From the NCBI GenBank assembly GCA_009729775.1, contig GCA_009729775.1_4081.1: 64,000 bases of DNA; one strand, 5' to 3'. This document shows positions 33,940-51,345 of the stretch, piece by piece. The position numbers and the translations under genes are program-made. The notes beneath the pieces were generated by a model. It saw nothing but the letters and a program-made list of their open reading frames with translations, was not told where the DNA came from and made no database searches. Positions within the stretch are counted from its first letter, which is position 1; each line of letters opens with the position of its first letter. The stretch is from Escherichia coli. GTDB lineage: Bacteria; Pseudomonadota; Gammaproteobacteria; Enterobacterales; Enterobacteriaceae.

Positions 33940-34010
33940 GAGGGAGAACCATTTCCCCCTCTCTATGTAAAACATTATACTTGATTCTAAGTACTATGCA
34001 AGTACTTTTT
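33940..34010 (-). promoter_or_regulatory. early promoter cassette: TTGCAT-16-TATAAT followed by GC-rich 5' hairpin
   Basis: reverse complement reads TTGCAT..TATAAT then GGGGGAAATGGTTCTCCC stem-loop then RBS. Confidence 0.55.
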
Positions 34011-34335
34011 ACATTTTAATACCTGGATTCAGGTAGCGGTGAGATCCGTATTCTGGATCTGTTTCGGTCCAGTACTGTAAATCTATAGTACCCTTTGCGT
34101 TAATCTTGTCTACTAGCTTATTCATCTTAGTGTAGACTACTTCGCTAGGGATGTAGTGTAATCCTTTATTATAGAAGTAGTGGTTAGCTTCACTATCGTT
34201 TAAGATATAGCGTGCACCGTTTGCGGTTTGTGCAACAATGAAAGAGTATTCTACTTCCCGATCATTACCATCAACAGTAATGCGGTCGAAATTGGTACGG
34301 ATGAAAGCTTTAACGATAGCGATTGAAGTACTCAT
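34009..34335 (-). CDS. hypothetical protein
   Basis: 108 aa ORF. Confidence 0.55.
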   Translation of the reverse strand: MSTSIAIVKAFIRTNFDRITVDGNDREVEYSFIVAQTANGARYILNDSEANHYFYNKGLHYIPSEVVYTKMNKLVDKINAKGTIDLQYWTETDPEYGSHRYLNPGIKM

Positions 34336-34469
34336 GGTGAATCTCCTAACTTTGTGGGCCGTCGCACCATTGCCGCCCTACGAGATACATTATTGCAGTA
34401 CTGATATACTTTGTCAATACTTTTTTTGAAATAGTTTTGAGTACTGGAATTACATCCACCAGCAGATAG

Positions 34470-34590
34470 TTACTCACCGTTATGAACTATCTTACAGATA
34501 CTTCTCTGCACCCTGTGGGCTAGTTTTTGTCTATGCGTATATAATAGCAAAGGGACTGACCGGAGTCAATCCCTTTTTTTATTCTTTTTT
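34470..34590. repeat. repeated intergenic composite element (GCACCCTGTGGGCTAG core and AAGGGACTGACCGGAGTCAATCCCTTTTTT hairpin)
   Basis: near-identical copies at about 36390-36510, 39760-39870, 43790-43920. Confidence 0.6.
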
Positions 34591-34591
34591 G

Positions 34592-34792
34592 TTAGATGAT
34601 TCTCCAATCTTCTACCAGGATTTTAATATACCGTACCAGTGATTCGAGTGATTCCACTTCCCGATAATCGGTAGCCGTTTGCACGGAACAAGTACAGCCG
34701 ATCAAGCCATTGCCAAGCTCTTTGATCTGTACATCGATGCAGTTGGCTTTTGCTTCATTCAGTACTGCAACCAATTCGTTAGCGATTGACAT
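34592..34792 (-). CDS. hypothetical protein
   Basis: 66 aa ORF with upstream promoter cassette. Confidence 0.5.
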   Translation of the reverse strand: MSIANELVAVLNEAKANCIDVQIKELGNGLIGCTCSVQTATDYREVESLESLVRYIKILVEDWRII

Positions 34793-34810
34793 AATGTTTT
34801 ACTCCTAAAG

Positions 34811-34875
34811 GTGCGGGAGAACTATTCCCCCGCTCTATGTAAAACATTATACATTATCTTGTAGTACTGTCAAAT
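34811..34875 (-). promoter_or_regulatory. early promoter cassette (TTGACA-16-TATAAT) and 5' hairpin
   Basis: reverse complement of intergenic region. Confidence 0.55.
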
Positions 34876-34880
34876 AGTTT

Positions 34881-35138
34881 TTATGAGATATCTTCGATAT
34901 AGTCGGCCCATGTCATTTGTTCAGTACTATCGAGTGCACCAGGATTATTTGGATCAAACCATTCGCCATCCCCTAAGTACATTGCAGCGGATACCGCTTT
35001 ATAGCCATTATAGGCGTTATTCCACTGCATAGCACGATAGATATGGCCTTTAATTGGTGTTAGTACTGGTAACGTTTTATGGTCTTCTACGTAGGCTGTA
35101 GCGATTGGATTTACCCGATACGTTTTGAACTGTTCCAT
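34881..35138 (-). CDS. hypothetical protein
   Basis: 85 aa ORF. Confidence 0.5.
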   Translation of the reverse strand: MEQFKTYRVNPIATAYVEDHKTLPVLTPIKGHIYRAMQWNNAYNGYKAVSAAMYLGDGEWFDPNNPGALDSTEQMTWADYIEDIS

Positions 35139-35212
35139 GATGTTTCCCCTTTAGTTAGTAAAGTTAATACAACAGTACTATCACGCATTGTCAATAGTAC
35201 TGAAATAAAACT

Positions 35213-35437
35213 TTAGATTAGATTATTGATGCCGTTGATGGTAGACTCGCTTTCTTCTTTCTCCCATTGGCGGTAATACTTCCATGCTTCATGATAGGTG
35301 GCGATCAGTTCATCTTTTTGATCCTGAGTACATGCCAGTACTGAATCACTGTAAGCGGTGTTATAGATAGAATCAAATGATTTCTTCTCTTCTGCCAGGG
35401 TAGCTACTTCCCGCATCAGTTCATCAAAGTTAGCCAT
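35213..35437 (-). CDS. hypothetical protein
   Basis: start at MANFDELM; track extension covers 5' hairpin. Confidence 0.55.
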   Translation of the reverse strand: MANFDELMREVATLAEEKKSFDSIYNTAYSDSVLACTQDQKDELIATYHEAWKYYRQWEKEESESTINGINNLI

Positions 35438-35454
35438 TTTAGTACTCCTTATTA

Positions 35455-35520
35455 GTGGGGGAGGATATCTCCCCCTATGCAAAACATTATACTTTGTTTT
35501 ACTTACAATGCAAGTACTTT
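35455..35520 (-). promoter_or_regulatory. early promoter cassette (TTGCAT-16-TATAAT) and hairpin GGGGGAG-atat-CCTCCCCC
   Basis: reverse complement of intergenic region. Confidence 0.55.
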
Positions 35521-35712
35521 TTAAATTTTATTTCCGATATAGTCCGGCCTGTTCTTTTCGGTCATACGCTTAAGCATTTTTTGCATATGGCTTATTGCTT
35601 GTAGTGTATCCTCTTCCAGCGATGAATCAAGATAATCAGGATCATTCTTCACCTTACAATGATTATGATAGCGTAGTACTGCCAGTACTTTTTTAACTTC
35701 TTCAACTGTCAT
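35521..35712 (-). CDS. hypothetical protein
   Basis: 63 aa ORF. Confidence 0.45.
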   Translation of the reverse strand: MTVEEVKKVLAVLRYHNHCKVKNDPDYLDSSLEEDTLQAISHMQKMLKRMTEKNRPDYIGNKI

Positions 35713-35981
35713 AATAAGTATTCCACTTCGTTTGCTTTCAGGTTAGTATCAATCATCAGTGGCTTTTTGTAGTCCACAAAACGATTAGTTTTTTCGATAG
35801 CGAAGCCCATATAATCCAGCTTGCTTACCGTGCATTCATTCTTAAAAACTTCTTTCGCTGCATTGATGGCTGATTGCAATGTTAACCGACCATCTAAGTT
35901 AATGTTTCCAAATGATCCACCAGCAGAAGTAGGATTACCGTTCATATCTTTAATGATCATAGTTGCGGAGTAGCTAGACAT
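35709..35981 (-). CDS. hypothetical protein
   Basis: 90 aa ORF. Confidence 0.55.
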   Translation of the reverse strand: MSSYSATMIIKDMNGNPTSAGGSFGNINLDGRLTLQSAINAAKEVFKNECTVSKLDYMGFAIEKTNRFVDYKKPLMIDTNLKANEVEYLL

Positions 35982-36002
35982 AATTTTGTTTCCTTTTAGT
36001 AT

Positions 36003-36062
36003 CGGGGAGAACTATTCTCCCCTTGATGTAAACTATTATACAGTACTGATATACTTTGTCAA
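36003..36062 (-). promoter_or_regulatory. early promoter cassette (TTGACA-16-TATAAT) and hairpin GGGGAGAA-tagt-TCTCCCC
   Basis: reverse complement of intergenic region. Confidence 0.55.
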
Positions 36063-36065
36063 TAC

Positions 36066-36287
36066 TTAATTACGTTTAAAATGATATGTACCTTTATCAT
36101 CCTGTACGCCCCATACTGATTTACCATCAACGCCAGTGAAGCCGGATTGCAATTCAATATGGAAACCATTATTATCAACTACAAAAACTTTTTTATTTTC
36201 ATCCCGATAACATTGATATTCTGAATCAACATTAAAGGCCGCATCATTCAGAAGATTGGAAGCGTAAATGCAAGTCATTGTAGTCAT
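36066..36287 (-). CDS. hypothetical protein
   Basis: start at MTTMTCIY; track MVLP extension is hairpin. Confidence 0.55.
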   Translation of the reverse strand: MTTMTCIYASNLLNDAAFNVDSEYQCYRDENKKVFVVDNNGFHIELQSGFTGVDGKSVWGVQDDKGTYHFKRN

Positions 36288-36389
36288 GATTTTATTCCTT
36301 ATTCTTTGAGGGAGAACCATTTCCCCCTCTCGATATAAAACATTATACTTGATTCTAAGTACAATGCAAGTACTTTTTTAAAAATAGTT

Positions 36390-36510
36390 TTCAGTACTGA
36401 ATACTTATATAATAGATACACTTCCGCACCCTATGGGTCAGTGAGTTATCTCTCAATGAATATATAATAGCAAAGGGACTGACTGGAGTCAATCCCTTTT
36501 TTAATCTTTT
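36390..36510. repeat. repeated intergenic composite element, copy 2
   Basis: as above. Confidence 0.6.
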
Positions 36511-37095
36511 TTATCGTGTTATAGTTATCGCGTTAACATCACGTTTTTTATAGTACTGATTCCAGATATTGCGGGTTAAACCGTAATCAAGTACTTTAAT
36601 CAAGCCGTTGCGATCCTGGCCGATATTCTGTTTTCTGATATCTCTTATCGTTAGTGTGGATAATGTATCATCAACGTGATTGAGAGCATCAGCGAAATGG
36701 TGATGGCGTTCAATAGTGTTACGTTTAATATTGTACTTTAACTCATTACATGCGGTTACGTGCTTTACACTGCCTTTGCTTGCAGTACTCAAACGATCCA
36801 TAACAATAAACAGATTATCAGGATCGCATAAATGCATATGCACCTTGGCAAAGAACTGTTTAAGGTGCGGACGGTCATAATCTAAAAAATTCCATACCTT
36901 ACATTCAGTTTCATTTTGTTCTACACCCGCATCACAATTCGCGACCTTAATCACTAACCGATCATTTAAAGCGAATACAATACGGGAAGAACCCGCACCG
37001 ACGATCTCCAGTCCAGCTAACCGACAAGCTGAAAGGATCTCTTTGTTGGTTTCCATTGCATGAAGTGAACGGATGAATTTAGTATAGTTACGCAT
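36511..37095 (-). CDS. putative protein kinase-like protein
   Basis: Gly-rich loop GAGSSRIV, VIKV lysine, IRDIRKQN (HRD-like), DYG (DFG-like); start at MRNYTKF with GGAG RBS. Confidence 0.45.
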   Translation of the reverse strand: MRNYTKFIRSLHAMETNKEILSACRLAGLEIVGAGSSRIVFALNDRLVIKVANCDAGVEQNETECKVWNFLDYDRPHLKQFFAKVHMHLCDPDNLFIVMDRLSTASKGSVKHVTACNELKYNIKRNTIERHHHFADALNHVDDTLSTLTIRDIRKQNIGQDRNGLIKVLDYGLTRNIWNQYYKKRDVNAITITR

Positions 37096-37126
37096 TGTGT
37101 TGACTCCTTGAGTTAATGAAACTATA

Positions 37127-37369
37127 TTACAGTACTTTACTATCAATGGCAACTACTTTTTTTACTTGAACTGCGTGGAATACTTCACGCGTATTTTTAG
37201 TACTGAATACTTTTGCCGTACCTTGTTCGACCGCAATACGATAGCGACCGTTAACGTCCACCATGTTGATAAAGTCCGGTGTACTGAATGGAGTTACCCG
37301 GCATTTAAGAACGGTTAACAGTTCCACCAGCGTGGTAGTCTCTTTGATACGTTTTTCTAAAGTAATCAT
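37127..37369 (-). CDS. hypothetical protein
   Basis: start at MITLEKRIKE downstream of TTGACA-17-TACTAT. Confidence 0.5.
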   Translation of the reverse strand: MITLEKRIKETTTLVELLTVLKCRVTPFSTPDFINMVDVNGRYRIAVEQGTAKVFSTKNTREVFHAVQVKKVVAIDSKVL

Positions 37370-37426
37370 TTTGTTTTCCCCGTGTTGGTATGCATTCATA
37401 GTACTAAAACATTTGAGTACTGTCAA

Positions 37427-37645
37427 TTAGATAATAGAATATTTCTTTAGTGATAATGCGTCTTCTGTCGGTTGATATTCTACACCGTTCCCGTTATCAA
37501 CCTTAGTGAGTAAACCTTTATCAATGAGTTTTTTGATGGTACGGTTTCCCTGTTGAAAACTAGTGAAGTGTGAATCATTACGAAAGGTATAACCGTGCTT
37601 CACTGCTTCATCAATAGTTTTCTTTTCGATTTTAGATAATTTCAT
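37427..37645 (-). CDS. hypothetical protein
   Basis: 72 aa ORF. Confidence 0.5.
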   Translation of the reverse strand: MKLSKIEKKTIDEAVKHGYTFRNDSHFTSFQQGNRTIKKLIDKGLLTKVDNGNGVEYQPTEDALSLKKYSII

Positions 37646-37703
37646 TTTGTTTCTCTCTCTCTGTGTTGGTATAGATACATAATACTAAAACATTTGAGTA
37701 CTG

Positions 37704-37958
37704 TCAACGTGATATTAGTTTTATTTTTTTATTGTATTGTTGGTGTTCATATAGATTAATTTTTCCAGTACTCTCGATCACTATTCTATTGTTAGTGTCT
37801 ACATCGATAACACGTAGTTTCCCGTTGCTTAACTTCCTAGGCAATAGACTACCATTAATAAACTCATTAGCAAGCTGTACGGCCTTTGTGATGATTCTCT
37901 GTGGTGCTTTATAGTGTACCCGCAAGATATTATCTTTAGATAGTTGTACCTTCATCAT
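37704..37958 (-). CDS. hypothetical protein
   Basis: 84 aa basic ORF. Confidence 0.5.
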   Translation of the reverse strand: MMKVQLSKDNILRVHYKAPQRIITKAVQLANEFINGSLLPRKLSNGKLRVIDVDTNNRIVIESTGKINLYEHQQYNKKIKLISR

Positions 37959-37973
37959 TTTAGTTTATCCTAT

Positions 37974-37998
37974 AAAAAAGGCGGGAACTGAACCCGCC
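37974..37998 (-). terminator. rho-independent terminator
   Basis: GGCGGG-aactgaa-CCCGCC hairpin followed by U-tract on minus strand, after stop of 38022..38426. Confidence 0.55.
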
Positions 37999-38021
37999 GT
38001 GTTGTTAGTACTGCAAAGTTA

Positions 38022-38417
38022 TTAGATAACCTGGCGGCGTTTACTGTATACTGTTACACGGTTTCCTTTACGGTCATGACGGATCTCTTTCTGGTTACGA
38101 ATCAGTTCACTTGGACGCTTAAGGTTTGCCAGGTGATCCGCGTGAGTCCATGCATTACTATTCACTTGTACTTGAATATCAGAACCTTCCAAGAAGTCAT
38201 CTTGAGCGTTCAGTACTTCAGCCAGTTCTTGAGCTTTCTTCAGTTCTGCTTCAGTAAGTACTGGTTCAGGTGAATTCACAATATCAGAGATCTCTTTGAA
38301 CTGTACCGCCCAGCGTTGTCCTTTCGGTGCATCTTTGCCCATGTCTTTAAATGTTTCACCTTCTTCACGGGCAACGATGCGAGCTTGTTCACGGGTAGCG
38401 AAGAATTTAGTAATCAT
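38022..38417 (-). CDS. hypothetical protein, paralog of 50213..50479
   Basis: shared FATREQARIVAREEGETFKDMG and HDRKGNRVTVYS segments. Confidence 0.6.
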   Translation of the reverse strand: MITKFFATREQARIVAREEGETFKDMGKDAPKGQRWAVQFKEISDIVNSPEPVLTEAELKKAQELAEVLNAQDDFLEGSDIQVQVNSNAWTHADHLANLKRPSELIRNQKEIRHDRKGNRVTVYSKRRQVI

Positions 38418-38516
38418 GGTGTACATCCTATTAGTTAAGTTAATTAGTACTACAAGTTAGAGTCTATTATAAAGTACTATCTGGGTAATGTCAAATAGTA
38501 CTTTAAATGGATTCTA

Positions 38517-38840
38517 TTACATGTCTTTCTTACGTTTTACATCGTAGTAACGAACTGTAATTTCTTTGTTGATCTCTTCCTCAATTCTGTGTAGTACTTT
38601 CTCTTTCGGGTTGAAACCTATTACAGTTTCTTTAATGATCTCCAAGCCCGTGTATTCGCCTTGTGTACCGTAACCGTAAGTAAAGGTTTCATGTCCCAGG
38701 TCTTCCCAGCGGTCACCAATCAATGCAGACACGTAGCATGAGTGGTAAGTATTGCCGTGGCTATCAGTCCACCGATTAACTTTAATGTCAAAGGAAGTTA
38801 CAATTTTCATTTCTACTTTCTGGGTAAGGATCATAGCCAT
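38517..38840 (-). CDS. hypothetical protein, paralog of 45141..45485
   Basis: shared GNTY, YGYG and C-terminal VKRKKD motifs. Confidence 0.6.
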   Translation of the reverse strand: MAMILTQKVEMKIVTSFDIKVNRWTDSHGNTYHSCYVSALIGDRWEDLGHETFTYGYGTQGEYTGLEIIKETVIGFNPKEKVLHRIEEEINKEITVRYYDVKRKKDM

Positions 38841-38861
38841 TTTAATTTCTCTCTTTTAGTT

Positions 38862-38927
38862 AGGAGGGGAACCATTCCCCTGCCTTGATGTAAACTATTA
38901 TACAGTACTAAGATACTTTGTCAATAC
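38862..38927 (-). promoter_or_regulatory. early promoter cassette (TTGACA..TATAAT) and 5' hairpin
   Basis: reverse complement of intergenic region. Confidence 0.5.
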
Positions 38928-39129
38928 TTATTTGTTTTCTTTTCGTAATTTCTTTTCAGCTTCAACTACATTCTTATTTGTGCAAACTACTTCATCGGAT
39001 AAATCTAACTTCCATCCAGACAGGGGTTTGGTTTGTTTCTTTGCTGCTTTGTTCGCTTTCATGATGTTTCCTTTTTAATTAAGATGTAAACTATTATACA
39101 GTACTAAGATACTTTGTCAATCTATTTTA

Positions 39130-39330
39130 TTAGATAGTTTCCCATTTCATGTTACCCGCTTTACGCTGTGAAACAGGAATAAACATGTTATTAATGTTAC
39201 TAATATAACCGACCTGTAAGTCACGCTGTGAACCATATGCCCGACTTGCTGCATTTTTAGCACCGCGTTCTGATTTATAAACGCCGCTGGATACTGTAAA
39301 GCCTACTACACCGAAAGTAAAATGTTTCAT
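39130..39330 (-). CDS. hypothetical protein
   Basis: 66 aa ORF; two tandem promoters upstream. Confidence 0.5.
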   Translation of the reverse strand: MKHFTFGVVGFTVSSGVYKSERGAKNAASRAYGSQRDLQVGYISNINNMFIPVSQRKAGNMKWETI

Positions 39331-39524
39331 TTTGTATTCCTCTTTGTGGTTGATGTAAGTATTATACTCGTTTACTTTCTATTGTCAATCTTTTTTATCA
39401 GGGGAGTTTTTCGTATGTCTTACTCCTGGACTACTTAACGGGGTTACTTGTTTCGTTCCCCGTCCTGATGTAAAACATTATACTTGATTCTAAGTACAAT
39501 GCAAGTACTTTTTAAAAATAGTTT

Positions 39525-39689: not shown

Positions 39690-39759
39690 TTACTCCTGGT
39701 TATGTCGTTATTAAACATTATACGGGGTTATAGATAGTTTGCAATTAGTTTTTCAGTAC

Positions 39760-45779: not shown

Positions 45780-45862
45780 TTTTGTTTCCTCTTAGTTGTC
45801 TTGATAAAATCTATTATGCCAGTACTATCAATCTATGTCAATAGTACTGTGATAATAATTTT

Positions 45863-46006
45863 ACTTACTTTTTGCTTTCTTTATTGCTTCCACCTGGTCG
45901 GCCCACTCTTTACCCCATACTTGAGCGTTATAGTGATACTGACAAAGAGCAACGCCCCGTTTCAAACCAGTGATAGATTTTTTACCACATTGACAAGTTT
46001 TCATTT
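45863..46006 (-). CDS. hypothetical small Cys-containing protein (below track cutoff)
   Basis: 47 aa ORF MKTCQCGKKS...CQYH with its own promoter-hairpin cassette and RBS. Confidence 0.4.
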
Positions 46007-46020
46007 TTAGTTTCCTCTTA

Positions 46021-46086
46021 GTGGGGAGAATCATTTCTCCCCTTGATGTAATGTATTATACTTTATCCGATTTACTTTGCAAGTAC
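46021..46086 (-). promoter_or_regulatory. early promoter cassette (TTGCAA..TATAAT) and hairpin GGGGAGAA-tcat-TTCTCCCC
   Basis: reverse complement of intergenic region. Confidence 0.5.
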
Positions 46087-46089
46087 TTT

Positions 46090-46317
46090 TTAGTTTAATT
46101 CATCCAGGCATAAGATACGATCTACGCCGAGATCCGTTAAGCTAATGGTTGGCACTTGATAGGTTTCAATGTATTCTACACTAGCCCACTGACCGAACTC
46201 ATTCACCGCCCAGGTATTCATTGCAAAATGTAATTCCGCACCTTTCTTATTAGTAATTACAGCAACAGTAGAAGAATTGCCAGTAGTACCAGATACGCGA
46301 GTGATTACGATAGCCAT
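46090..46317 (-). CDS. hypothetical protein
   Basis: 75 aa ORF. Confidence 0.5.
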   Translation of the reverse strand: MAIVITRVSGTTGNSSTVAVITNKKGAELHFAMNTWAVNEFGQWASVEYIETYQVPTISLTDLGVDRILCLDELN

Positions 46318-46750
46318 TGTTTTGATTCCTATTCAGTAGTTGATGTATGTATTATGTCAGTACTTAAAACTATTGTCAAACTATTTTTTAAAGACTATCT
46401 ACGATAGCTGCCGTTTCAATAATAGACTTACCTTTTTTTGAACATGCAATAACTGCTTTAAATTCCTTTGATGACCATTCTTTTTTACTGCATACTAACA
46501 TTACTTGCATAGTGAAACAATCCAGTTCATAAGTATTCATCTTTAAATCCTCAGTTAGTTAAGGTGTCTTGCCTTGATGTAACTAATTATACGCCTTTCT
46601 CTTAATCGTGCAAGTACTTTTTATTACTTTTTGCAAAATACTTTAAACGCTCTCAATCGCATTCTAACGGCCTTAACTCCACCAGCTAGGGCGATGCATC
46701 AGATAATCAGTTTAATGCGTTAGAATCGATTCTATGAGGTGCTGACGGTC

Positions 46751-46786
46751 TGGAATGCAATAAAAACAAAAAAGCCCACTGCTTAT
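46751..46786 (-). terminator. rho-independent terminator
   Basis: AGCCCAC-N8-GTGGGCT hairpin with long U-tract on minus strand after stop of 46816..47313. Confidence 0.6.
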
Positions 46787-46815
46787 AGTGGGCTAGTGAT
46801 TCAGTACTTTAAATG

Positions 46816-47298
46816 TTATGCTTCAATTTTGCGGTGAGATTCGATCCATTCCTCGCGAGTCATACCGCTTTCTTTGATAGCATCCAGTACTACCGCAATG
46901 CAGTTACCGCGTACAGGAATCAAATGTTCTTCCCCGTTATCAAGGACAACCGTAACACGTTCTTGAATCCATTTTTTAGGCTTAGATTCCGGCTTATCTT
47001 CACCGTACTTAACCGCCAGGGCTTTATGTGCCATTTCAATAACCACTTCCAGATCTAAACCAGACACCGCCGCCTGAATACTTTCTATTGTTGCTTGCAG
47101 TTCTGCTTCACGGGCTTTTTTCTGTTCTTCCAGTTCTGCTACCTTTTTGGCTTGTAGTTCTTTCGCTTCACTGTAAGCAATGTTAAAATTGTTGCGTACT
47201 GCTTTCATGGTATCATTATCCAGGTCAGCCAGCAATTCAGCAGCAATCACAGTATCGTTAGAAATCAGTGCTTTCAGAAATGATTTTACATTAGCCAT
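46816..47298 (-). CDS. hypothetical protein, predicted coiled-coil
   Basis: start at MANVKSFLK; Ala/Glu/Lys-rich heptad-like segment. Confidence 0.55.
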   Translation of the reverse strand: MANVKSFLKALISNDTVIAAELLADLDNDTMKAVRNNFNIAYSEAKELQAKKVAELEEQKKAREAELQATIESIQAAVSGLDLEVVIEMAHKALAVKYGEDKPESKPKKWIQERVTVVLDNGEEHLIPVRGNCIAVVLDAIKESGMTREEWIESHRKIEA

Positions 47299-47482
47299 TT
47301 TATAAATCCTCAATTAAAGTTTAAGTTAGTTTATCAAAGTTTGTTTGACGTGTCCAGTTTTTCATTCGACTTACTGGCGGTCTACTTAATGTTCCCCGTC
47401 TTGATGTAATACATTCTACGCTTTTCCCTGGTAATGTCAACTACTTTTTTAAAACTATTTTCAAAGTATACCAGTACTACGA

Positions 47483-47520
47483 TAATACAAAAACAAAAAA
47501 GCCCACTGTTTAAGGTGGGC
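47483..47520 (-). terminator. rho-independent terminator
   Basis: GCCCAC-N8-GTGGGC hairpin with U-tract on minus strand after stop of 47539..47838. Confidence 0.6.
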
Positions 47521-47538
47521 TAGTGATTCAGTACTAGA

Positions 47539-47838
47539 TTATAAACAGTTAATTACTCCGGTGTGCGTTACTTTCTCAGTATCCATCACAGTGACCGAAC
47601 CGCGTTTAGTACTGGCATCATAATAAATTGTTGTGCTACCGTTTTTGTCTTCTTCATGGAACGGGCCGTTTTTAAATGCTTCCGGCTGGATCTCTAAATC
47701 CTTTAATACAATCTCGCCAGTTCTTTCATCGGTCATTGCAACAGTGCACTGAATGAATTTTTCACTACTTACATCTAATGACGCATTAACAGCGAAAGAG
47801 GAAACAGATAAAGCCAGGGCGATGATTGCAATTTTCAT
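47539..47838 (-). CDS. secreted protein with N-terminal signal peptide
   Basis: MKIAIIALALSVSSFAVNA signal-like N-terminus. Confidence 0.55.
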   Translation of the reverse strand: MKIAIIALALSVSSFAVNASLDVSSEKFIQCTVAMTDERTGEIVLKDLEIQPEAFKNGPFHEEDKNGSTTIYYDASTKRGSVTVMDTEKVTHTGVINCL

Positions 47839-47922
47839 TTGATTATCCTTAGTTACCAGGGGGAACCGCTCCCCCTTGCTATGTAAAATATTATACAGTA
47901 CTAAAAACTAATTGCAAGTACT

Positions 47923-48159
47923 TTATGATTTTTTATAAAACATTTCGGCAGTGATATTTTTACCCGTTGGCTGTACTTTATCCAGAATTTTTTGATGCCC
48001 TGGCCGTCCAAATGAATATGATCCGTAAACCGTAAACCAGTAGTTACCCTCAGTGTTTACATGTACAGCACAATAGGGAACGCCCCGCGATTCATCACTA
48101 GTAAAGTGTGCTACCGTTCCCGTTACATTCGAAGTCGTTGATTTGATTTGTTCAAGCAT
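47923..48159 (-). CDS. hypothetical protein
   Basis: 78 aa ORF. Confidence 0.5.
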   Translation of the reverse strand: MLEQIKSTTSNVTGTVAHFTSDESRGVPYCAVHVNTEGNYWFTVYGSYSFGRPGHQKILDKVQPTGKNITAEMFYKKS

Positions 48160-48266
48160 TTTCTTATTCCTTAGTTACCAGGGGAACCGCTCCCCTATGC
48201 AAAACATTATACGCGTTTAAAAACTATTGTCTAGTATTTTAATAAAAAGTATTTGAAAAATAGTTG

Positions 48267-48396
48267 TTGACAAGTGCATCCAGTACTGGCATAATACTTA
48301 CATAAAGACGAGATAGTCACTAACCCACAGGGTGCATAGATCCGTCTATTAAATGATTCAGTACTGCAAAATAAAGGGGATCAATTGATCCCCTCT
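48267..48396 (+). ncRNA. candidate small RNA unit: plus-strand promoter (TTGACA-17-CATAAT), conserved CCCACAGGGTGCAT core, hairpin
   Basis: promoter at 48267-48295, no ORF, ends at palindromic hairpin; core shared with other copies. Confidence 0.25.
48365..48396. terminator. palindromic hairpin, possible bidirectional terminator
   Basis: GGGGATC-aatt-GATCCCC with T-rich flanks on both sides. Confidence 0.4.
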
Positions 48397-48399
48397 GTA

Positions 48400-48621
48400 T
48401 TACTTAGTAAGGTATAAACAGAAGTCACCTTTATTTGCTACGCCGCCAGTGTAACGCGATGAATAGTTAGAAACGTCCTGGACTTCTGCTATTACCAGTG
48501 TATCATCATTCAATTCGTCGCAGAAGCAAACGGCTGGATCTTTTACGCCGATATTGTCGGCATGTTCCCGCATAGATTTAACCAGTGCTTCAAGTTGGGA
48601 AAGAGTAGTGATATTAGCCAT
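48400..48621 (-). CDS. hypothetical protein
   Basis: start at MANITTLSQ; track MVLP extension is hairpin. Confidence 0.5.
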   Translation of the reverse strand: MANITTLSQLEALVKSMREHADNIGVKDPAVCFCDELNDDTLVIAEVQDVSNYSSRYTGGVANKGDFCLYLTK

Positions 48622-48708
48622 TTTATTTTCCTCATTACCAGGGAGAACCATTTTCTCCCCTCTATGTAAACCATTATACAGTACTAAAAACTAATTGCAA
48701 GTACTTTT

Positions 48709-48912
48709 TTAATTTAATTGCTTTAAAACATACTCAAAGACACCACGCACATCATTGATCATCGCCTGGCGGTTAGCAGGTAACGCATCAGGATCGCCAC
48801 TATCCCAGGCATTGATAAAACTCCCCAAATCATGATAGATTTTATTCTGTAAGCCGATCAACTGCAATTCTTTTTCTTCAAGCTCTTTGATACGTTCAAT
48901 TAAATCACTCAT
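48709..48912 (-). CDS. hypothetical protein
   Basis: start probably at MSDLIERIKE. Confidence 0.5.
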   Translation of the reverse strand: MSDLIERIKELEEKELQLIGLQNKIYHDLGSFINAWDSGDPDALPANRQAMINDVRGVFEYVLKQLN

Positions 48913-48929
48913 TATATAATCCTTAGTAC

Positions 48930-49211
48930 TTAATTGTAAGATCCGCAACGGTCGCAGTAGTGCCCCTCGTCATCGTCAACGAATTGACCAACGAAATTAT
49001 CTACTTTCGCTTTCAGGTTATTATAATCGTTTTCTACTTCCTTTAAACGCTTCTGGTAGTATTCCAGTGCTTTAAGATATGCCGCATCAGTAGTTTTCTC
49101 CTGCATAGCTAAATTCATGCCACGCGTTTCATCATAAAGCCAATAACCATCAGTACATTGGCTAATAGACAATGACTTGCTTAACACTGTATAGTTAATT
49201 ACTTTGCTCAT
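48930..49211 (-). CDS. hypothetical protein
   Basis: start probably at MSKVINYTV; C-terminal CDRC pair. Confidence 0.5.
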   Translation of the reverse strand: MSKVINYTVLSKSLSISQCTDGYWLYDETRGMNLAMQEKTTDAAYLKALEYYQKRLKEVENDYNNLKAKVDNFVGQFVDDDEGHYCDRCGSYN

Positions 49212-49301
49212 TAGATAACCCTCAGTAAAGGCGGGAACCACTCCCCGCCTCGATATAAAGTATTATACGCTTTTAAACTTAGTATGCAAGTACTTTTTAA
49301 A

Positions 49302-49913
49302 TTAATATGCGATAGATTCTACTACATCGTCGATAACGTTAAATTGATATTCGTTACCCTCAATCAGTCCTACAATGTTTTCAGTAGTAAACTGGTCTTC
49401 ATAAGCATTTTCTAAATCACGGTACAGCTTACAAGATAATTCTCGGATAGTATCAGTCAGTAAGTTTTCCAGATCCTCAGCTAATGCAGCCTGTTTTACA
49501 GTTAAATCAGTGTAGCGAGTATCAACGCAACCGCCTACCGTGTTTTCGTGAGCGTAGCGTGATTGGGAACGTTCTACACTCATTTCCAAATCATCTTCGT
49601 TCAACAGGTGACGGATGGAACGATATTTCGTTAACGCCTTAACCTTGCGTAAAAACTTCTCAGCGTCAACGTGGTCAGTACTGATTGATGCACCGTCACC
49701 TTGCGACCAAAAACCACTGTATTGCAATTCAGCTTCATCTATGCCGTATTCTGGCAGTACTGTTTCTTTATAGTATTCCAGTACTGATTCAGCAAAGAAA
49801 TTATCCTCACTTGCACGTTCCCGATCCCGAACCAGTTCGATAGCCGCCGCTTGTTGTTCTGCGTTCAGTTCAGAAAAATCCATAACGAAAGTAGTAGTAG
49901 TGATAGTTTTCAT
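49302..49913 (-). CDS. hypothetical acidic protein
   Basis: 203 aa ORF; promoter TTGACA-16-TATAAT upstream. Confidence 0.6.
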   Translation of the reverse strand: MKTITTTTFVMDFSELNAEQQAAAIELVRDRERASEDNFFAESVLEYYKETVLPEYGIDEAELQYSGFWSQGDGASISTDHVDAEKFLRKVKALTKYRSIRHLLNEDDLEMSVERSQSRYAHENTVGGCVDTRYTDLTVKQAALAEDLENLLTDTIRELSCKLYRDLENAYEDQFTTENIVGLIEGNEYQFNVIDDVVESIAY

Positions 49914-50109
49914 TTTGTAACCCTCATTCAGTAGTTGATGTAAGTATTATACGCTTTTAAAAACAATTGTCAAACTATTTTATCAGGGGAGTTTTTCGTG
50001 TGCCTTACTCCTGGGCTACTTAACGGGAAGTTACTTATTTCGTTCCCCGTCCTGATGTAAAACATTATACGCCTTTAAACATAGTTTGCAAGTACTTTTT
50101 GAAAATAGT

Positions 50110-50200
50110 TTTTATCTCTTTCATATAGATACATTCCCGCACCCTATGGGCTATCGCCTTGTGTCCGGCTTGTAAGTATTATCTCACTAAGCCGGATAAC
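50110..50200. repeat. variant element with GCACCCTATGGGCTA core and CCGGCTT...AAGCCGG hairpin
   Basis: similar to 42120-42200. Confidence 0.4.
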
Positions 50201-50212
50201 GGTCAAGTACTT

Positions 50213-50479
50213 TTATTCAAGTACTGCAATCTTTTTAGTACTGTATACAGTAACGCGGTTGCCCTTTCGGTCGTGCTTTATTTCTACCACTCGACGCGAT
50301 ACACTATCAGGACTTTTTAAAACCGATCTCCAGTACTGAATTGATCGGGCTGTACTTTGCTTTACTACGGCCCAACGTTTACCACGTTCAGAATGTACGC
50401 CCATATCTTTAAACGTCGCCCCGTCCTGGCGTGCGGCAATCCGAGCAAGTTCACGCGTTGCAAAGTATATAATATTCAT
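50213..50479 (-). CDS. hypothetical protein, paralog of 38022..38417
   Basis: start at MNIIYFATREL; shared FATRE..FKDMG..HDRKGNRVTVYS. Confidence 0.6.
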   Translation of the reverse strand: MNIIYFATRELARIAARQDGATFKDMGVHSERGKRWAVVKQSTARSIQYWRSVLKSPDSVSRRVVEIKHDRKGNRVTVYSTKKIAVLE

Positions 50480-50561
50480 GCTGTTACCCCTATCGTTGTT
50501 GTATAAAAGAAATCTATTATAAAGTACTATCACCGTGCAATAGTACTTTTAATCTATTCTC

Positions 50562-50801
50562 TTACATTCCAACCATCGCCGCACGGATCGCAGTAGTGCT
50601 ATACTTAAAGCCGTCCGGTGTTTTATCTTGTCCAGTCTGTTCTAAAAATAGCATCATATGACGGGCCGCATCATTACGATTAGTGTTAGCGGCAATAAAG
50701 TCCTGGGCCAACCGGTATAATGATTCGTCGTTATTAATCCAAAGGCTTACATTCCATTGAGTTTTGTTTTTGTGACCTAAGAACATTTTTGATTTAGCCA
50801 T
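50562..50801 (-). CDS. hypothetical protein
   Basis: start at MAKSKMFLG; track extension covers hairpin. Confidence 0.5.
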   Translation of the reverse strand: MAKSKMFLGHKNKTQWNVSLWINNDESLYRLAQDFIAANTNRNDAARHMMLFLEQTGQDKTPDGFKYSTTAIRAAMVGM

Positions 50802-50814
50802 TTTTTTAATCCTC

Positions 50815-50885
50815 TTATATAGTGGGGAACTATTCCCCACCTGATGTAAAACATTATACGCTTTTAAACTTAGTTTGCAAGTACT
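50815..50885 (-). promoter_or_regulatory. early promoter cassette (TTGCAA-16-TATAAT) and hairpin GGGGAA-tagt-TCCCC
   Basis: reverse complement of intergenic region. Confidence 0.55.
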
Positions 50886-50894
50886 TTATTAAAC

Positions 50895-51257
50895 TTATTC
50901 GTAAATCTTTCCACTATCAGCCCATACCAGGAAACGAGGCATATTATCCCATGCATCTTGTTTTAAATTTAAACCGTGTAATACTTCTGTACTTTCCATT
51001 CCTGGTACTGGTTTACTATACACCGCGAACATTTCGCCCATGTACTGATAAGCCATCGTTAAATCACTGGCGATCATCTTATGAATCATCGCATCAAGCA
51101 TCACGGTAGCGGCGTATTGTTCACGCTTAAGCGGTAACATTGCAATAAGTTCCCGATAAGCTGAAATGTGAATTTTTACCGTTTCAGCCGGAAGATCTTT
51201 CATCTCTTCACGGAAGTTAACCAGGTTAGCAATAATTTTAGTGATTTGAGTAGCCAT
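50895..51257 (-). CDS. hypothetical protein
   Basis: start at MATQITKII. Confidence 0.55.
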   Translation of the reverse strand: MATQITKIIANLVNFREEMKDLPAETVKIHISAYRELIAMLPLKREQYAATVMLDAMIHKMIASDLTMAYQYMGEMFAVYSKPVPGMESTEVLHGLNLKQDAWDNMPRFLVWADSGKIYE

Positions 51258-51280
51258 CGTTTTAATCTCTCTTAAAGTGT

Positions 51281-51345
51281 AGCGGGAAGTGTTCCCGCTC
51301 TCGATGTAAAACATTATACGCCTATCGGGATAGTATGCAAGTACT
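51281..51345 (-). promoter_or_regulatory. early promoter cassette and hairpin GCGGGAA-gtg-TTCCCGC
   Basis: reverse complement of intergenic region. Confidence 0.5.

What the first reader, a model, noticed from the sequence alone, without database searches (positions are those of the whole stretch)
33940..51345. About 20 copies of a promoter plus 5' stem-loop cassette in front of small early genes
Most genes between 33.5 and 51.3 kb are preceded on the minus strand by a near-consensus TTGACA/TTGCAA - 16 or 17 nt - TATAAT promoter, then within a few nucleotides a GC-rich perfect hairpin (for example GGGGAGAA-tcat-TTCTCCCC), then an RBS and ATG. The hairpin has no U-tract, so it is a 5' leader structure, not a terminator. 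This closely resembles the promoter-early-stem-loop cassettes reported in hyperplastic regions of T4-type phages, which are thought to stabilise transcripts and mediate modular shuffling.
Basis: partly seen in the sequence, partly recalled or inferred. Interest (0 to 1): 0.75.

Follow-up and report, generated by a model that had tools for sequence, protein, structure and literature searches.

The report
Jumbo-phage early promoter–hairpin gene cassettes
The roughly 20-kb terminal repeat of a 350-kb E. coli "jumbo" phage is built from about 50 tiny genes, most with their own near-perfect host-type promoter and 19 also with a conserved RNA hairpin at the start of the message; related phages gain, lose and reorder these one-gene units by recombining within them, which extends a known kind of phage gene cassette rather than revealing a new system.

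Summary
Between 33.9 and 52.5 kb the minus strand carries 36-38 near-consensus sigma70 promoters. Nineteen are followed 8-17 nt (mostly 12-13) after the -10 by a 7-10 bp GC hairpin, then 16-24 nt with a Shine-Dalgarno sequence and ATG.

The window is an Asteriusvirus (121Q/PBECO4-like jumbo coliphage). By homology, the region is its ~20-kb direct terminal repeat (window ~33,092-52,915). No such cassette occurs in the rest of the window.

The hairpin behaves like an RNA structure:
- 49 distinct Asteriusvirus (and phage W70) versions keep pairs 1-7 96-100% paired, with compensatory changes.
- All 11 wobble mismatches are G·U on the mRNA strand; none is the antisense equivalent.
- Loops vary and there is no U-tract.
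- Klebsiella phage Muenster has different hairpin sequences at the same position.

Indels relative to four relatives have their endpoints inside the cassettes. Phage W70 (Vequintavirinae) shares ten of the modules in scrambled order.

I read this as a variant of the T4-type PeSL cassette in which the stem-loop lies in the 5' UTR rather than upstream of or within the promoter. It probably protects or insulates the mRNA; this is inferred, not shown. Novelty is moderate.

Side findings: nine co-oriented Chi sites confined to the repeat, a 12-fold excess of AGTACT, and a promoter-driven non-coding repeat family.

The parts
33092..52915 (-). Direct terminal repeat (DTR) of an Asteriusvirus; about 50 small ORFs, all on the minus strand, transcribed inward from the left physical end
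   Evidence: Inner limit: homology to the annotated DTR (1-21,525) of vB_Ec-M-J. Outer limit: records that begin at the physical end align to window 52,577 at their position 336. DTRs of 20.7-21.0 kb are reported for Sharanji and fEgEco12.
51255..51352 (-). Cassette P51340: TTGCAT-16-TATAAT, hairpin AGCGGGAA-cac-TTCCCGCT (51299-51281), ATG at 51257
50799..50892 (-). Cassette P50880: TTGCAA-16-TATAAT, hairpin GGTGGGGAA-tag-TTCCCCACT (50841-50821), ATG at 50801
49209..49301 (-). Cassette P49289: TTGCAT-16-TATAAT, hairpin GAGGCGGGGA-gtgg-TTCCCGCCTT (49251-49228, two G·U pairs), ATG at 49211. The ortholog in G17 is annotated as an ARNOLD terminator.
48619..48712 (-). Cassette P48700: TTGCAA-16-TATAAT, hairpin GGGGAGAA-aatgg-TTCTCCCT (48660-48640), ATG at 48621
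48157..48245 (-). Cassette P48233: TAGACA-16-TATAAT, hairpin TAGGGGAG-cgg-TTCCCCTG (48197-48179), ATG at 48159
47836..47929 (-). Cassette P47917: TTGCAA-16-TATAAT, hairpin AGGGGGAG-cgg-TTCCCCCT (47876-47858), ATG at 47838
46002..46094 (-). Cassette P46082: TTGCAA-16-TATAAT, hairpin GGGGAGAA-atga-TTCTCCCC (46042-46023), ATG at 46004. A near-identical cassette is present in Vequintavirinae phage W70.
44290..44382 (-). Cassette P44370: TTGCAA-16-TATAAT, hairpin GGGGGGAA-tgg-TTCTCCCC (44329-44311, one G·U pair), ATG at 44292
43691..43784 (-). Cassette P43772: TTGCAA-16-TATAAT, hairpin AGGGGAAA-cgg-TTTCCCCT (43731-43713), ATG at 43693
43249..43349 (-). Cassette P43337: TTGACA-16-TATAAT, hairpin GGGAAGTA-acag-TACTTCCC (43292-43273), ATG at 43251
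41131..41221 (-). Cassette P41209: TTGCAA-16-TATAAT, hairpin GGGGAGAA-tag-TTCTCCCC (41169-41151), ATG at 41133
40508..40599 (-).
38838..38936 (-). Cassette P38924: TTGACA-16-TATAAT, hairpin AGGGGAA-tgg-TTCCCCT (38881-38865), ATG at 38840
36285..36381 (-). Cassette P36369: TTGCAT-16-TATAAT, hairpin GAGGGGGAA-atgg-TTCTCCCTC (36329-36308, one G·U pair), ATG at 36287
35979..36074 (-). Cassette P36062: TTGACA-16-TATAAT, hairpin GGGGAGAA-tag-TTCTCCCC (36022-36004), ATG at 35981
35435..35525 (-). Cassette P35513: TTGCAT-16-TATAAT, hairpin GGGGGAG-atatc-CTCCCCC (35475-35457), ATG at 35437. It is a chimera of the two cassettes that flank an extra gene in BF17, with the crossover inside the promoter spacer.
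34790..34885 (-). Cassette P34873: TTGACA-16-TATAAT, hairpin GCGGGGGAA-tag-TTCTCCCGC (34833-34813, one G·U pair), ATG at 34792. The cassette plus its 66-aa ORF form a 288-bp insertion relative to BF17.
34333..34429 (-). Cassette P34417: TTGACA-17-AATAAT, imperfect bulged hairpin GGGCGGCAatggTGCGACGGCCC, ATG at 34335
33917..34013 (-). Cassette P34001: TTGCAT-16-TATAAT, hairpin GAGGGGGAA-atgg-TTCTCCCTC (33961-33940, one G·U pair), ATG at 33919
49911..50103 (-). Long-leader unit: P50091 (TTGCAA-16-TATAAT), then a ~100-nt leader with two hairpins and no ORF, then a second promoter P49973 (TTGACA-16-TATAAT, no hairpin), ATG at 49913
   Evidence: The homologous block is in W70.
39328..39516 (-). Long-leader unit: P39504, structured leader, second promoter P39388, ATG at 39330
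47295..47452 (-). Variant long-leader unit: P47440 (TTGACA-16-TAGAAT) with a ~115-nt leader before the 46816-47313 ORF
45519..45547 (-). Hairpin-less class with an extended -10 (AGTACTA-TTGACA-17-TGgCATAAT, 33-nt leader). Sister copies at 45813-45841 and 42991-43019; related copy at 42713-42740.
46351..46379 (-). Hairpin-less promoter P46379. Others of this kind: P46613 (46586-46613), P41626 (41599-41626), P39744 (39717-39744), P39120 (39093-39120), P38494 (38466-38494), P37707 (37679-37707), P37426 (37398-37426).
34541..34576 (-). Composite terminator/promoter: a 12-bp hairpin AAAGGGATTGACTCCGGTCAGTCCCTTT encloses a -35 TTGACT and is followed by TATTAT. Copies at 36464-36499, 39823-39858 and 43877-43912. 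This is the layout closest to published PeSLs.

Best explanation
The region is the long direct terminal repeat of an Asteriusvirus jumbo coliphage and is built from one-gene expression modules.

**Module layout.** A typical module runs, in order: upstream stop codon; A-tract plus AGTAC; a near-consensus host sigma70 promoter (TTGACA or TTGCAA/T, 16 nt, with AGTACTG abutting TATAAT); a conserved start region (nTTTACAT); a 7-10 bp G-rich/C-rich hairpin; a Shine-Dalgarno sequence; ATG.

**Proposed mechanism.**
1. Host RNA polymerase fires these promoters as soon as the repeat enters the cell.
2. The hairpin forms in the mRNA about 2-7 nt from its 5' end.
3. There it acts as a 5'-UTR structure, not a terminator. 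Most likely it shields the message from 5'-end-dependent decay or scanning by RNase E. It may also keep the ribosome-binding site in a constant context whatever gene follows.
4. Transcripts that read through from upstream would acquire the same protected 5' end after cleavage in the U-rich stretch before the hairpin.
5. Because the ~90-nt cassettes are repeated about 20-40 times, homologous recombination between them deletes, inserts and reorders single genes.

**Status of each step.**
- Shown here: the anatomy, the RNA-type conservation, the location in the repeat, and recombination endpoints inside cassettes.
- Inferred: early timing, the exact start site, and the stabilising/insulating role.
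For: **Anatomy and statistics:**

**Location:** DTR by homology; the DTR of relatives was verified by PhageTerm or restriction digests. No cassette in 1-33 kb or 53-64 kb.

**Early expression (indirect):** the related jumbo phage PA5oct shows high early transcription of its DTR by RNA-seq. RpoD-like promoters with UP-like elements cluster in the early region and terminal repeat of phage CBB.

**RNA-level constraint**
- 49 distinct hairpins from this window, four relatives and W70 keep pairs 1-7 96-100% paired with 2-5 pair types per position. Paired fraction is 0.967 against 0.817±0.011 for shuffled partners.
- On the 23 three-nt-loop hairpins, 96.7% of cells pair against 84.4% in shuffles (0 of 500 reach it). 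Five of 8 pairs change on both sides, 22 cells are compensatory against 5.9 expected (0 of 500), and slid controls give 54-71%.
- With strand-symmetric detection, all 11 transition-type wobble mismatches are G·U in the sense strand, and none is A·C, the antisense equivalent.
- Klebsiella phage Muenster (another genus) has different stems (GGGGATACA/TGTATCCCC, GGGAATGAA/TTCATTCCC, GAGATTCCA/TGGAATCTC). Most start at the same 11-15 nt offset (full range 5-27).
- Loops are not conserved (tag, tgg, cgg, cac, atga, atgg, gcggt, atatc).

**Not a terminator:** 1-4 T (mostly 1-2) in the 8 nt after the stem. Real terminators with T5-7 exist nearby.

**Recombination**
- 61 of 101 homology-block ends against four relatives fall in cassettes, which cover 20% of the region.
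- Many junctions show 17-99 bp overlaps, meaning the indel is flanked by repeated cassettes.
- Two junctions were resolved to the promoter spacer.
- Ten modules are shared with W70 at 70-88% nucleotide identity in scrambled order.
Against: - No transcript data exist for this phage, so the start site and early timing are assumed.
- With a start 6-8 nt after the -10, most hairpins leave 4-7 unpaired 5' nucleotides. That is more than the 0-4 nt reported for classic 5'-terminal protective stem-loops (own knowledge of Emory/Bouvet/Belasco 1992), so protection may be partial or work only by blocking scanning.
- About 17 promoters in the same region manage without a hairpin.
- The hairpin set was selected by folding, so the pairing percentages carry ascertainment bias, and many copies are related by descent. 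The G·U cases reduce to about five independent events.
- Whole-gene indels must end in intergenic DNA to be viable, and here nearly all intergenic DNA is cassette. Enrichment of endpoints alone therefore does not prove that cassettes mediate recombination; the overlapping repeated flanks are the better evidence.
- The PeSL authors measured terminator activity for GGGG...CCCC stem-loops without obvious U-tracts.
Confidence: 0.55

Rival explanations
1. The hairpins are transcription terminators or attenuators, as proposed for PeSLs. They would stop or damp read-through from the upstream module so that each gene is driven mainly by its own promoter.
For: - The PeSL stem-loop of phage RB49/phi1 reduced lacZ expression in a terminator assay.
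- ARNOLD called at least one orthologous leader hairpin a terminator in the G17 record.
- With a promoter every 300-500 bp, cumulative read-through is a real problem.
Against: - The hairpin lies inside the promoter's own transcript at a fixed +5 to +30 position, so efficient termination would abort that promoter's own mRNA.
- No U-tract: 1-4 T (mostly 1-2) in the 8 nt after the stem.
- The region already uses canonical hairpin-plus-T5-7 terminators and four composite terminator/promoter hairpins.
- In PeSLs the stem-loop lies upstream of or within the promoter, which is where a terminator belongs.
Confidence: 0.17
2. The hairpin is the binding or cleavage site of a phage or host RNA-binding protein. 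Candidates are a translational repressor that shuts off early genes, a RegB-like nuclease acting on the GGAG in the 5' arm, or an antiterminator loading site like lambda boxB.
For: - The 5' arm is almost always purine-rich (G-C 242 against C-G 25).
- It often contains GGAG.
- Polarity is conserved in both jumbo-phage genera.
- A fixed position close to the ribosome-binding site would suit a common shut-off factor.
Against: - Loop sequence and length are not conserved.
- Stem sequence differs completely in Muenster.
- There is no boxA-like partner.
- No candidate protein was identified; only 10 of the roughly 50 proteins were scanned, and they gave only GNAT, DksA/TraR zinc-finger and weak kinase hits.
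Confidence: 0.13
3. The inverted repeat works at the DNA level, as a cruciform or a recombinase or structure-specific nuclease target that promotes cassette exchange. Its presence in the RNA would be incidental.
For: - Breakpoints cluster in cassettes.
- The PeSL authors speculated that GGGG...CCCC might be a target for a recombination protein.
- Nine co-oriented Chi sites in the repeat suggest that recombination is important here.
Against: - Wobble mismatches are exclusively G·T on the sense strand (11 against 0), which a double-strand or cruciform signal would not favour.
- The two resolved crossovers lie in the promoter spacer, not in the hairpin.
- The hairpin sits at a constant distance from the -10, which points to a transcript-related constraint.
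Confidence: 0.08
4. The hairpin has no function. It is a passenger carried along because the cassettes are recent duplicates of one ancestral intergenic sequence.
For: Many copies are very similar (GGGGAGAA/TTCTCCCC occurs in four window cassettes), and the flanking leader sequence is also conserved.
Against: - Compensatory changes keep the helix in 49 distinct versions.
- Another genus keeps the structure with unrelated sequence.
- Leaders fold far better than shuffled versions.
Confidence: 0.05

Closest known systems
PeSL (promoter-early stem-loop) cassettes of T4-type phages (Arbiol et al. 2010, PMC2839356; Comeau et al. 2014, PMC4122927)
   Same: - A ~100-bp intergenic composite: AT-rich upstream stretch, strong sigma70-like early promoter, G-run/C-run stem-loop, Shine-Dalgarno sequence and ATG.
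- Many copies among small genes of unknown function.
- Indels and replacements between related phages end in the motifs.
- Four units here (hairpin AAAGGG...CCCTTT around the -35) even match the A3-4G3-loop-C3T3-4 stem form described for phage nt-1.
   Different: - In the 19 main cassettes the stem-loop lies 8-17 nt downstream of the -10, inside the promoter's own transcript. In PeSLs it is upstream of, within, or just before the start site.
- There is no evidence of terminator function here, and the sequence features argue against it.
- The host is a Rak2-like jumbo phage.
- The cassettes are confined to the ~20-kb direct terminal repeat rather than spread over internal hyperplastic regions.
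- Mini-circle formation was not tested.
Host-takeover / pre-early gene blocks in long terminal repeats (SPO1 host-takeover module, T5 first-step-transfer region; own knowledge), and the early-transcribed DTR of jumbo phage PA5oct (PMC7318152)
   Same: A long terminal repeat filled with small genes of unknown function, each or nearly each with a strong host-type promoter, and presumed to be the first DNA expressed.
   Different: To my knowledge and in the papers read, a conserved leader hairpin and a repeated ~90-nt cassette that acts as a recombination substrate have not been described for those systems. Timing was not measured for this phage.
5'-proximal stabilising stem-loops of E. coli mRNAs (ompA, papA; Emory, Bouvet and Belasco 1992, cited in PMC3997798)
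   Same: A stable hairpin close to the 5' end of an mRNA, sequence-independent, followed by an efficient ribosome-binding site.
   Different: Here the predicted single-stranded 5' tail is 2-7 nt rather than 0-4 nt. No half-life data exist. The element is repeated about 20 times as part of a mobile cassette.
RpoD-like promoters with UP-like elements reported in the early region and terminal repeat of Rak2-like phage CBB (PMC5259590)
   Same: The same phage group, the same kind of promoter, and the same clustering among short hypothetical genes.
   Different: That report lists promoters only (18 in CBB). It does not describe the leader hairpin, the cassette homology, the AGTACT flanks or the shuffling.

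Membership tests
PeSL cassette | Strong sigma70-like early promoter with an AT-rich upstream stretch, followed by a Shine-Dalgarno sequence and the start codon of a small gene | tested here: met
   36-38 promoters at 0-1 mismatch, A-tract upstream, SD and ATG 46-58 nt after the -10
PeSL cassette | GC-rich stem-loop (G-run ... C-run) within the same intergenic motif | tested here: met
   19 cassettes with 7-10 bp stems, 5' arm G/A-rich and 3' arm C/T-rich
PeSL cassette | Stem-loop placed upstream of, between or overlapping the -35/-10 boxes, or just before the start site (that is, outside the promoter's own transcript) | tested here: not met
   In the 19 cassettes the stem starts 8-17 nt after the -10. 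The feature is met only by the four composite hairpin-around-the-35 units at 34576, 36499, 39858 and 43912.
PeSL cassette | Stem-loop acts as a transcription terminator/attenuator (lacZ assay in the original work) | not testable with these tools
   Sequence only: no U-tract, and its position would terminate the promoter's own transcript
PeSL cassette | Indel and replacement junctions between related phages lie in the motifs | tested here: met
   61 of 101 block ends fall in cassettes covering 20% of the region; 17-99 bp repeated flanks; two crossovers mapped to the promoter spacer; scrambled shared modules in W70
PeSL cassette | Formation of cassette mini-circles during infection | not testable with these tools
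   Needs inverse PCR on infected cells
Intrinsic (rho-independent) terminator | GC-rich hairpin immediately followed by a U-tract | tested here: not met
   1-4 T (mostly 1-2) in the 8 nt after each hairpin; none of the 19 is among the terminator-like sites
5'-terminal stabilising stem-loop (ompA type) | Hairpin within a few unpaired nucleotides of the mRNA 5' end | tested here: inconclusive
   The start site is not mapped. If it lies 6-8 nt after the -10, the tail is 2-7 nt.
5'-terminal stabilising stem-loop (ompA type) | Removing the stem shortens mRNA half-life | not testable with these tools
   Needs rifampicin-chase experiments
Lambda-type nut site (boxA + boxB) | Conserved loop sequence recognised by an N-like protein, with a boxA partner | tested here: not met
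   Loops vary in length and sequence; no conserved partner motif in the alignment
Long direct terminal repeat carrying early/host-takeover genes | The region lies within the terminal repeat of the virion DNA | tested here: met
   By homology to annotated or experimentally supported DTRs of relatives. Not measured for this genome itself.
Known Rfam RNA family | Match to any of 4227 covariance models | tested here: not met
   No hit up to E=1 in 30-56 kb

The most novel reading that the evidence does not exclude
The leader-hairpin cassette may be the common currency of a gene-exchange pool that spans unrelated large enterobacterial myoviruses: Asteriusvirus, Alcyoneusvirus and Vequintavirinae. 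Under this reading, single early genes travel as ready-to-express modules (promoter, RNA 5' hairpin, ribosome-binding site). The terminal repeat is organised for this exchange: repeated ~90-nt homology patches together with nine co-oriented Chi sites would make it a RecBCD-stimulated recombination arena. The hairpin would be a specific RNA element, recognised or processed by a factor, rather than a generic stabiliser.
Probability: 0.2. Interest if true: 0.7.

Novelty: new variant of a known kind. Interest (0 to 1): 0.5.

Why it matters
- It extends the PeSL idea beyond classical T4-type phages, to the terminal repeats of Rak2-like jumbo phages and to rV5-like phages.
- It shows a version in which the stem-loop is an RNA leader element under structural selection.
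- The cassettes give a direct handle on which of the hundreds of unknown jumbo-phage genes are expressed first. They also explain why this region is the most mosaic part of these genomes.
- They offer compact, strong, portable expression units for E. coli.
- Practical point: several database gene starts are probably wrong, because an ATG in the hairpin loop is read as the start codon, and some leader hairpins are annotated as terminators.

Tried and rejected
- **Rfam:** scan of 30-56 kb at E≤1 found nothing.
- **tRNA/tmRNA:** none.
- **MAFFT alignment of whole cassettes (A1) and of all hairpins (A5):** the 5' arms came out of register when loop lengths differ. I therefore counted pairs outward from the loop in a script and used the formal pair-count tool only on the 23 equal-length hairpins.
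- **First strand-symmetric mismatch count:** the scoring was too strict and found only 2 mismatches. It was redone with a milder penalty.
- **RNAalifold on the CCCAYAGGGTGC units:** no convincing consensus structure. The short 5' stem that seems to covary by eye was misaligned.
- **IMG/VR exact-pattern scan for the GGGGAGAA cassette:** only one contig, of 121Q size, so nothing was learned about wider distribution.
- **Literature:** searches found no description of the leader hairpin in Asteriusvirus, CBB, rV5 or PA5oct papers and nothing on the AGTACT excess.
- **Pfam on 10 of the larger proteins:** only GNAT, DksA/TraR zinc-finger and sub-threshold kinase hits, and no RNA-binding candidate.
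- **Translation from the loop ATG:** considered and rejected. The SD-like arm is only 2-3 nt from it and is base-paired.
- **Recognition by the phage's own sigma factor:** considered but not favoured, because the promoters match the host sigma70 consensus almost perfectly.

Full report
**What the window is**

Megablast of 38-46 kb and of 33.0-52.6 kb against GenBank phages finds only Asteriusvirus jumbo coliphages as long matches (121Q, PBECO4, phAPEC6, G17, BF17, SP27, vB_Ec-M-J and others). Identity is about 90-94%, but at most 74-78% of the query is covered in any one genome. The source is therefore a member of this genus not present in that collection, and this region is strongly mosaic.

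In vB_Ec-M-J the annotated direct terminal repeat (record 1-21,525) ends at a point that aligns to window ~33,092. Several records that start at the physical genome end align to window 52,577 at their position 336, which places the outer end near 52,915. Terminal repeats of 20.7-21.0 kb were found with PhageTerm in Sharanji, and with PhageTerm and restriction digests in fEgEco12. The finding's region is thus the ~20-kb terminal repeat.

Gene organisation changes exactly at its inner border. Below 33.0 kb the small genes overlap stop-to-start with no promoters. Inside the repeat nearly every gene has an intergenic spacer of about 85-100 nt.

**Checking the observation**

A strict consensus scan gives 38 promoters on the minus strand between 33.5 and 52.6 kb. 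There are 13 more on the minus strand in the other 45 kb and 16 on the whole plus strand. All twelve perfect TTGACA-16/17-TATAAT sites in 33-52 kb are on the minus strand.

Twenty of 36 leaders fold at or below -10 kcal/mol. The same threshold is reached by 4.8% of shuffled leaders and 1.7% of 40-nt windows in 1-33 kb.

Eighteen clean hairpins and one bulged one share a uniform geometry:
- stem of 7-10 bp and loop of 3-5 nt;
- start 8-17 nt (mostly 12-13) after the -10;
- end 16-24 nt before the ATG;
- 46-58 nt from the -10 to the ATG.

Conservation extends beyond the hexamers. 'AAAAAGTAC' abuts the -35, 'AGTACTG' abuts the -10, and 'nTTTACAT(A/C)(A/G)AG' follows the -10. The copies are therefore homologous cassettes, not just independent consensus promoters.

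- about 17 promoters have no hairpin, including a distinct extended -10 class (TGgCATAAT) with a 33-nt leader;
- three have a ~100-nt two-hairpin leader followed by a second promoter;
- eight further promoters drive a non-coding repeat (see the last section).

**Is the hairpin under selection, and at which level?**

I collected all promoter-proximal hairpins from the window and from the homologous regions of BF17, vB_Ec-M-J, 121Q and G17, plus W70 and Muenster. There are 61 distinct sequences, most starting 11-15 nt after the -10.

- *Pairing.* Pairs were counted outward from the loop in 49 distinct hairpins from the window, four Asteriusvirus relatives and W70. Pairs 1-7 are 96-100% paired, with several pair types per position. 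Pair 4, for example, is G-C 27, A-U 11, G·U 9, which is the classical route of compensatory change. The paired fraction is 0.967, against 0.817±0.011 when 3' arms are shuffled among sequences.
- *Formal count.* The pair-count tool was run on the 23 hairpins with 3-nt loops. It gives 96.7% paired against 84.4% in shuffles (0 of 500 reach it). Five of 8 pairs change on both sides, 22 cells are compensatory against 5.9 expected (0 of 500), and slid registers give 54-71%.
- *Strand.* With a detection rule that treats both strands alike, 38 of 52 helices are perfect. Of 14 single internal mismatches, 11 are G·T with the G in the 5' arm (G·U in the mRNA). None is A·C, which would be the wobble pair on the other strand. 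These represent about five independent events.
- *Another genus.* In Klebsiella phage Muenster (Alcyoneusvirus) the terminal repeat has 41 such promoters, 14 with leader hairpins. Most sit at the same 11-15 nt offset (full range 5-27), but their stems are unrelated in sequence.
- *Loops.* Loops vary freely.

Together this points to a structure in the sense transcript, with no specific sequence required.

Caveats: the set was chosen by folding, and many copies are related by descent.

**Terminator or leader?**

The 8 nt after each hairpin contain 1-4 T, mostly 1-2. The same region has canonical terminators with T5-7 at 37998, 46794 and 47521.

The hairpin lies inside the transcript of its own promoter, so an efficient terminator there would abort that promoter's own mRNA.

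The G17 record nevertheless annotates the ortholog of the P49289 hairpin as an ARNOLD terminator.

The start site is unmapped. If it is the usual 6-8 nt after the -10 (the conserved TACAT offers two pyrimidine-purine steps), the hairpin begins 2-7 nt from the 5' end.

I therefore favour a 5'-UTR role. The first possibility is protection against 5'-end-dependent RNase E attack or scanning. This is established for 5' stem-loops of ompA and papA; the references are listed in PMC3997798, and the details come from my own knowledge. The second possibility is insulation of the ribosome-binding site from whatever gene follows.

The U-rich stretch between the -10 and the stem (GUUUUAC or AGUUUAC) resembles RNase E sites. 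Read-through transcripts could therefore be cut there and end up with the same protected 5' end. This last step is speculation.

**Module shuffling**

I chained blastn matches between the window and four relatives. This gives 101 homology-block ends inside the repeat, and 61 of them lie in cassettes, which cover 20% of the sequence. Many events are shared between relatives, so there are about 20 distinct junctions.

Typical events are single-gene indels of 240-440 bp, for example:
- P34873 plus a 66-aa ORF;
- the GNAT acetyltransferase gene at 41178-41616;
- the 50-aa ORF at 46330-46573;
- the 79-aa ORF at 48713-48967.

In many junctions the two flanking matches overlap by 17-99 bp. This means the extra gene in one genome is bracketed by two cassette copies.

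Two junctions were inspected base by base:
- The window's P35513 cassette has the upstream half of one BF17 cassette and the downstream half of the next, with the switch inside the 16-nt spacer.
- At the GNAT indel, BF17 carries the -35 of P41626 joined to a different -10 and hairpin.

This is the pattern proposed for PeSL-mediated deletion and insertion. Because almost all intergenic DNA here is cassette, endpoint enrichment alone would also follow from simple viability selection. The repeated flanks and the chimeric cassettes are the positive evidence.

**Spread beyond the genus**

A 116-nt cassette query finds 8-24 places per Asteriusvirus genome. It also finds weaker full-cassette matches (about 75-80% identity) in ~137-145 kb coliphages (W70, A7_1, A5-4, A73, LTH01), of which W70 was retrieved and is classified in Vequintavirinae, and in Alcyoneusvirus.

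W70 carries ten blocks at 70-88% nucleotide identity to window modules. Their order in W70 corresponds to window positions 50.0, 46.1, 43.1, 45.6, 50.7, 49.1, 43.5, 45.3, 48.1 and 34.7 kb. Most of its ~80-100-nt intergenic spacers have the same layout of promoter, CAT(C/A), GC hairpin and Shine-Dalgarno sequence.

One-gene modules have therefore moved between unrelated phage lineages and been reordered.

**Comparison with what is known**

The closest described system is the PeSL of T4-type phages. Shared features are the composite architecture, the G-run/C-run stem polarity, the association with small unknown genes, and breakpoints in the motif.

The defining placement of the stem-loop is not met by the 19 main cassettes. 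In PeSLs it lies upstream of, within, or just before the start of the promoter, and it was assayed as a terminator. Placement is met only by four composite units here, in which a 12-bp AAAGGG...CCCTTT hairpin encloses the -35.

For Rak2-like phages, only RpoD-like promoters with UP-like elements in the early region and terminal repeat had been noted (CBB). For rV5, only 33 sigma70-like promoters were noted.

Early expression of the terminal repeat is shown by RNA-seq only in the distant relative PA5oct.

I therefore class this as a new variant of a known kind. Interest is moderate.

**Other things seen**

- AGTACT occurs 253 times against 21.6 expected. It is found in all three reading frames and at 6.8 per kb in non-coding DNA. 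The excess is 15-21-fold in the Asteriusvirus and Alcyoneusvirus loci but only 2-fold in W70.
- Chi (GCTGGTGG) occurs nine times on the gene strand, all inside the repeat, plus one opposite copy near the outer end. This pattern is conserved in five relatives.
- A non-coding unit with the conserved block RCCCAYAGGGTGC-N4-RTGTATCTAT and its own promoter occurs eight times here and about ten times in Muenster.
- These three observations are unexplained.

Noticed in passing
window 34456, 35917, 37324, 39763, 41033, 42496, 46679, 51492, 52315 (minus strand); 52327 (plus strand): Nine Chi sites (GCTGGTGG) lie on the gene strand, all inside the terminal repeat (about 0.2 expected per strand in 64 kb), and none lies in the other 44 kb. 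One opposite-strand copy forms an inverted pair ~0.6 kb from the presumed left end. The pattern is conserved: 8-9 co-oriented sites in BF17, vB_Ec-M-J, 121Q and G17, and 7 plus 1 in Klebsiella phage Muenster. The orientation suits RecBCD entering from the right physical end. This may protect the DNA ends and/or stimulate recombination in the repeat.
   Followed up: partly
whole window (253 sites); densest at 32-56 kb: The palindrome AGTACT is about 12-fold over-represented (253 against 21.6 expected). It occurs in all three reading frames (55/31/50) and at 6.8 per kb in non-coding DNA. It forms part of the promoters (AGTAC-TTGCAA; AGTACTG-TATAAT). The excess is 15-21-fold in the Asteriusvirus and Alcyoneusvirus loci but only 2-fold in W70. 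No paper was found on this. About 15 GC-containing palindromic hexamers are absent altogether.
   Followed up: partly
minus strand, motif starts at 50150, 43850, 42160, 39801, 36437, 34519; plus strand 48324, 51835 (variant near 51600): This is a promoter-driven non-coding unit. After the promoter come ~21-29 nt with a short stem that seems to covary (GAC/GTC, GTC/GAC, GCC/GGC, TGAG/CTCA). Then comes the conserved block RCCCAYAGGGTGC-N4-RTGTATCTAT, with no ORF. About ten copies occur in the Muenster repeat. There is no Rfam hit, and RNAalifold on a MAFFT alignment found no convincing fold. It is a candidate phage small-RNA family; PA5oct also has abundant non-coding RNAs in its repeat.
   Followed up: partly
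window 34549-34576, 36472-36499, 39831-39858, 43885-43912: A 12-bp hairpin AAAGGGATTGAC...GTCAGTCCCTTT has an A-run before it and T's after it. It looks like a bidirectional terminator, and it also contains the -35 (TTGACT) of the promoter that drives the non-coding unit. G17 annotates the orthologs as terminators.
   Followed up: partly
window 39389-39504, 49974-50091, ~47330-47440; L003 5577-5695: There is a ~100-nt leader with two hairpins (ACGGGG...CCCCGT and CCAGGAG...CTCCCCTG) and no ORF, placed between a first and a second promoter. It is also present in Vequintavirinae phage W70. It could be an attenuator or a small RNA.
   Followed up: no
hairpin loops of P49289, P48700, P46082, P44370, P36369, P34001: The loop often reads ATG(G/A), or GTG. 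In six of nine such cassettes this codon is in frame with the gene and has no intervening stop, so ORF callers start the gene 10-11 codons too early. An example is window 33518-33952 at 144 aa against 133 aa annotated in BF17 and vB_Ec-M-J; 121Q_317 uses the long form. These are probably annotation artefacts.
   Followed up: partly
window 52000-53100: The non-coding stretch around the presumed physical end contains many short direct repeats: TAGCCGTC-type 32-nt units at 52028-52139, TGATTAC(N3) repeats at 52823-53050, and AAGGGGTAATTGAA twice. These may be packaging or terminus signals.
   Followed up: no
window 36511-37152, 41213-41569, 41633-41890 (minus strand): Only a few proteins in the repeat have recognisable domains. 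There is a weak protein-kinase-like match below the Pfam cut-off (its Muenster counterpart is annotated as a putative kinase), a GNAT acetyltransferase that is present or absent among relatives, and a DksA/TraR-type zinc-finger protein. All would fit host takeover.
   Followed up: partly
one search hits H104-H115: The promoter part of the cassette (TTGACA, spacer, AGTACTGTATAAT) matches 48 nt at 86% identity in Bacillus subtilis phages of the phiNIT1/Grass/SPG24 group. This is probably convergence on a consensus promoter; it was not examined.
   Followed up: no
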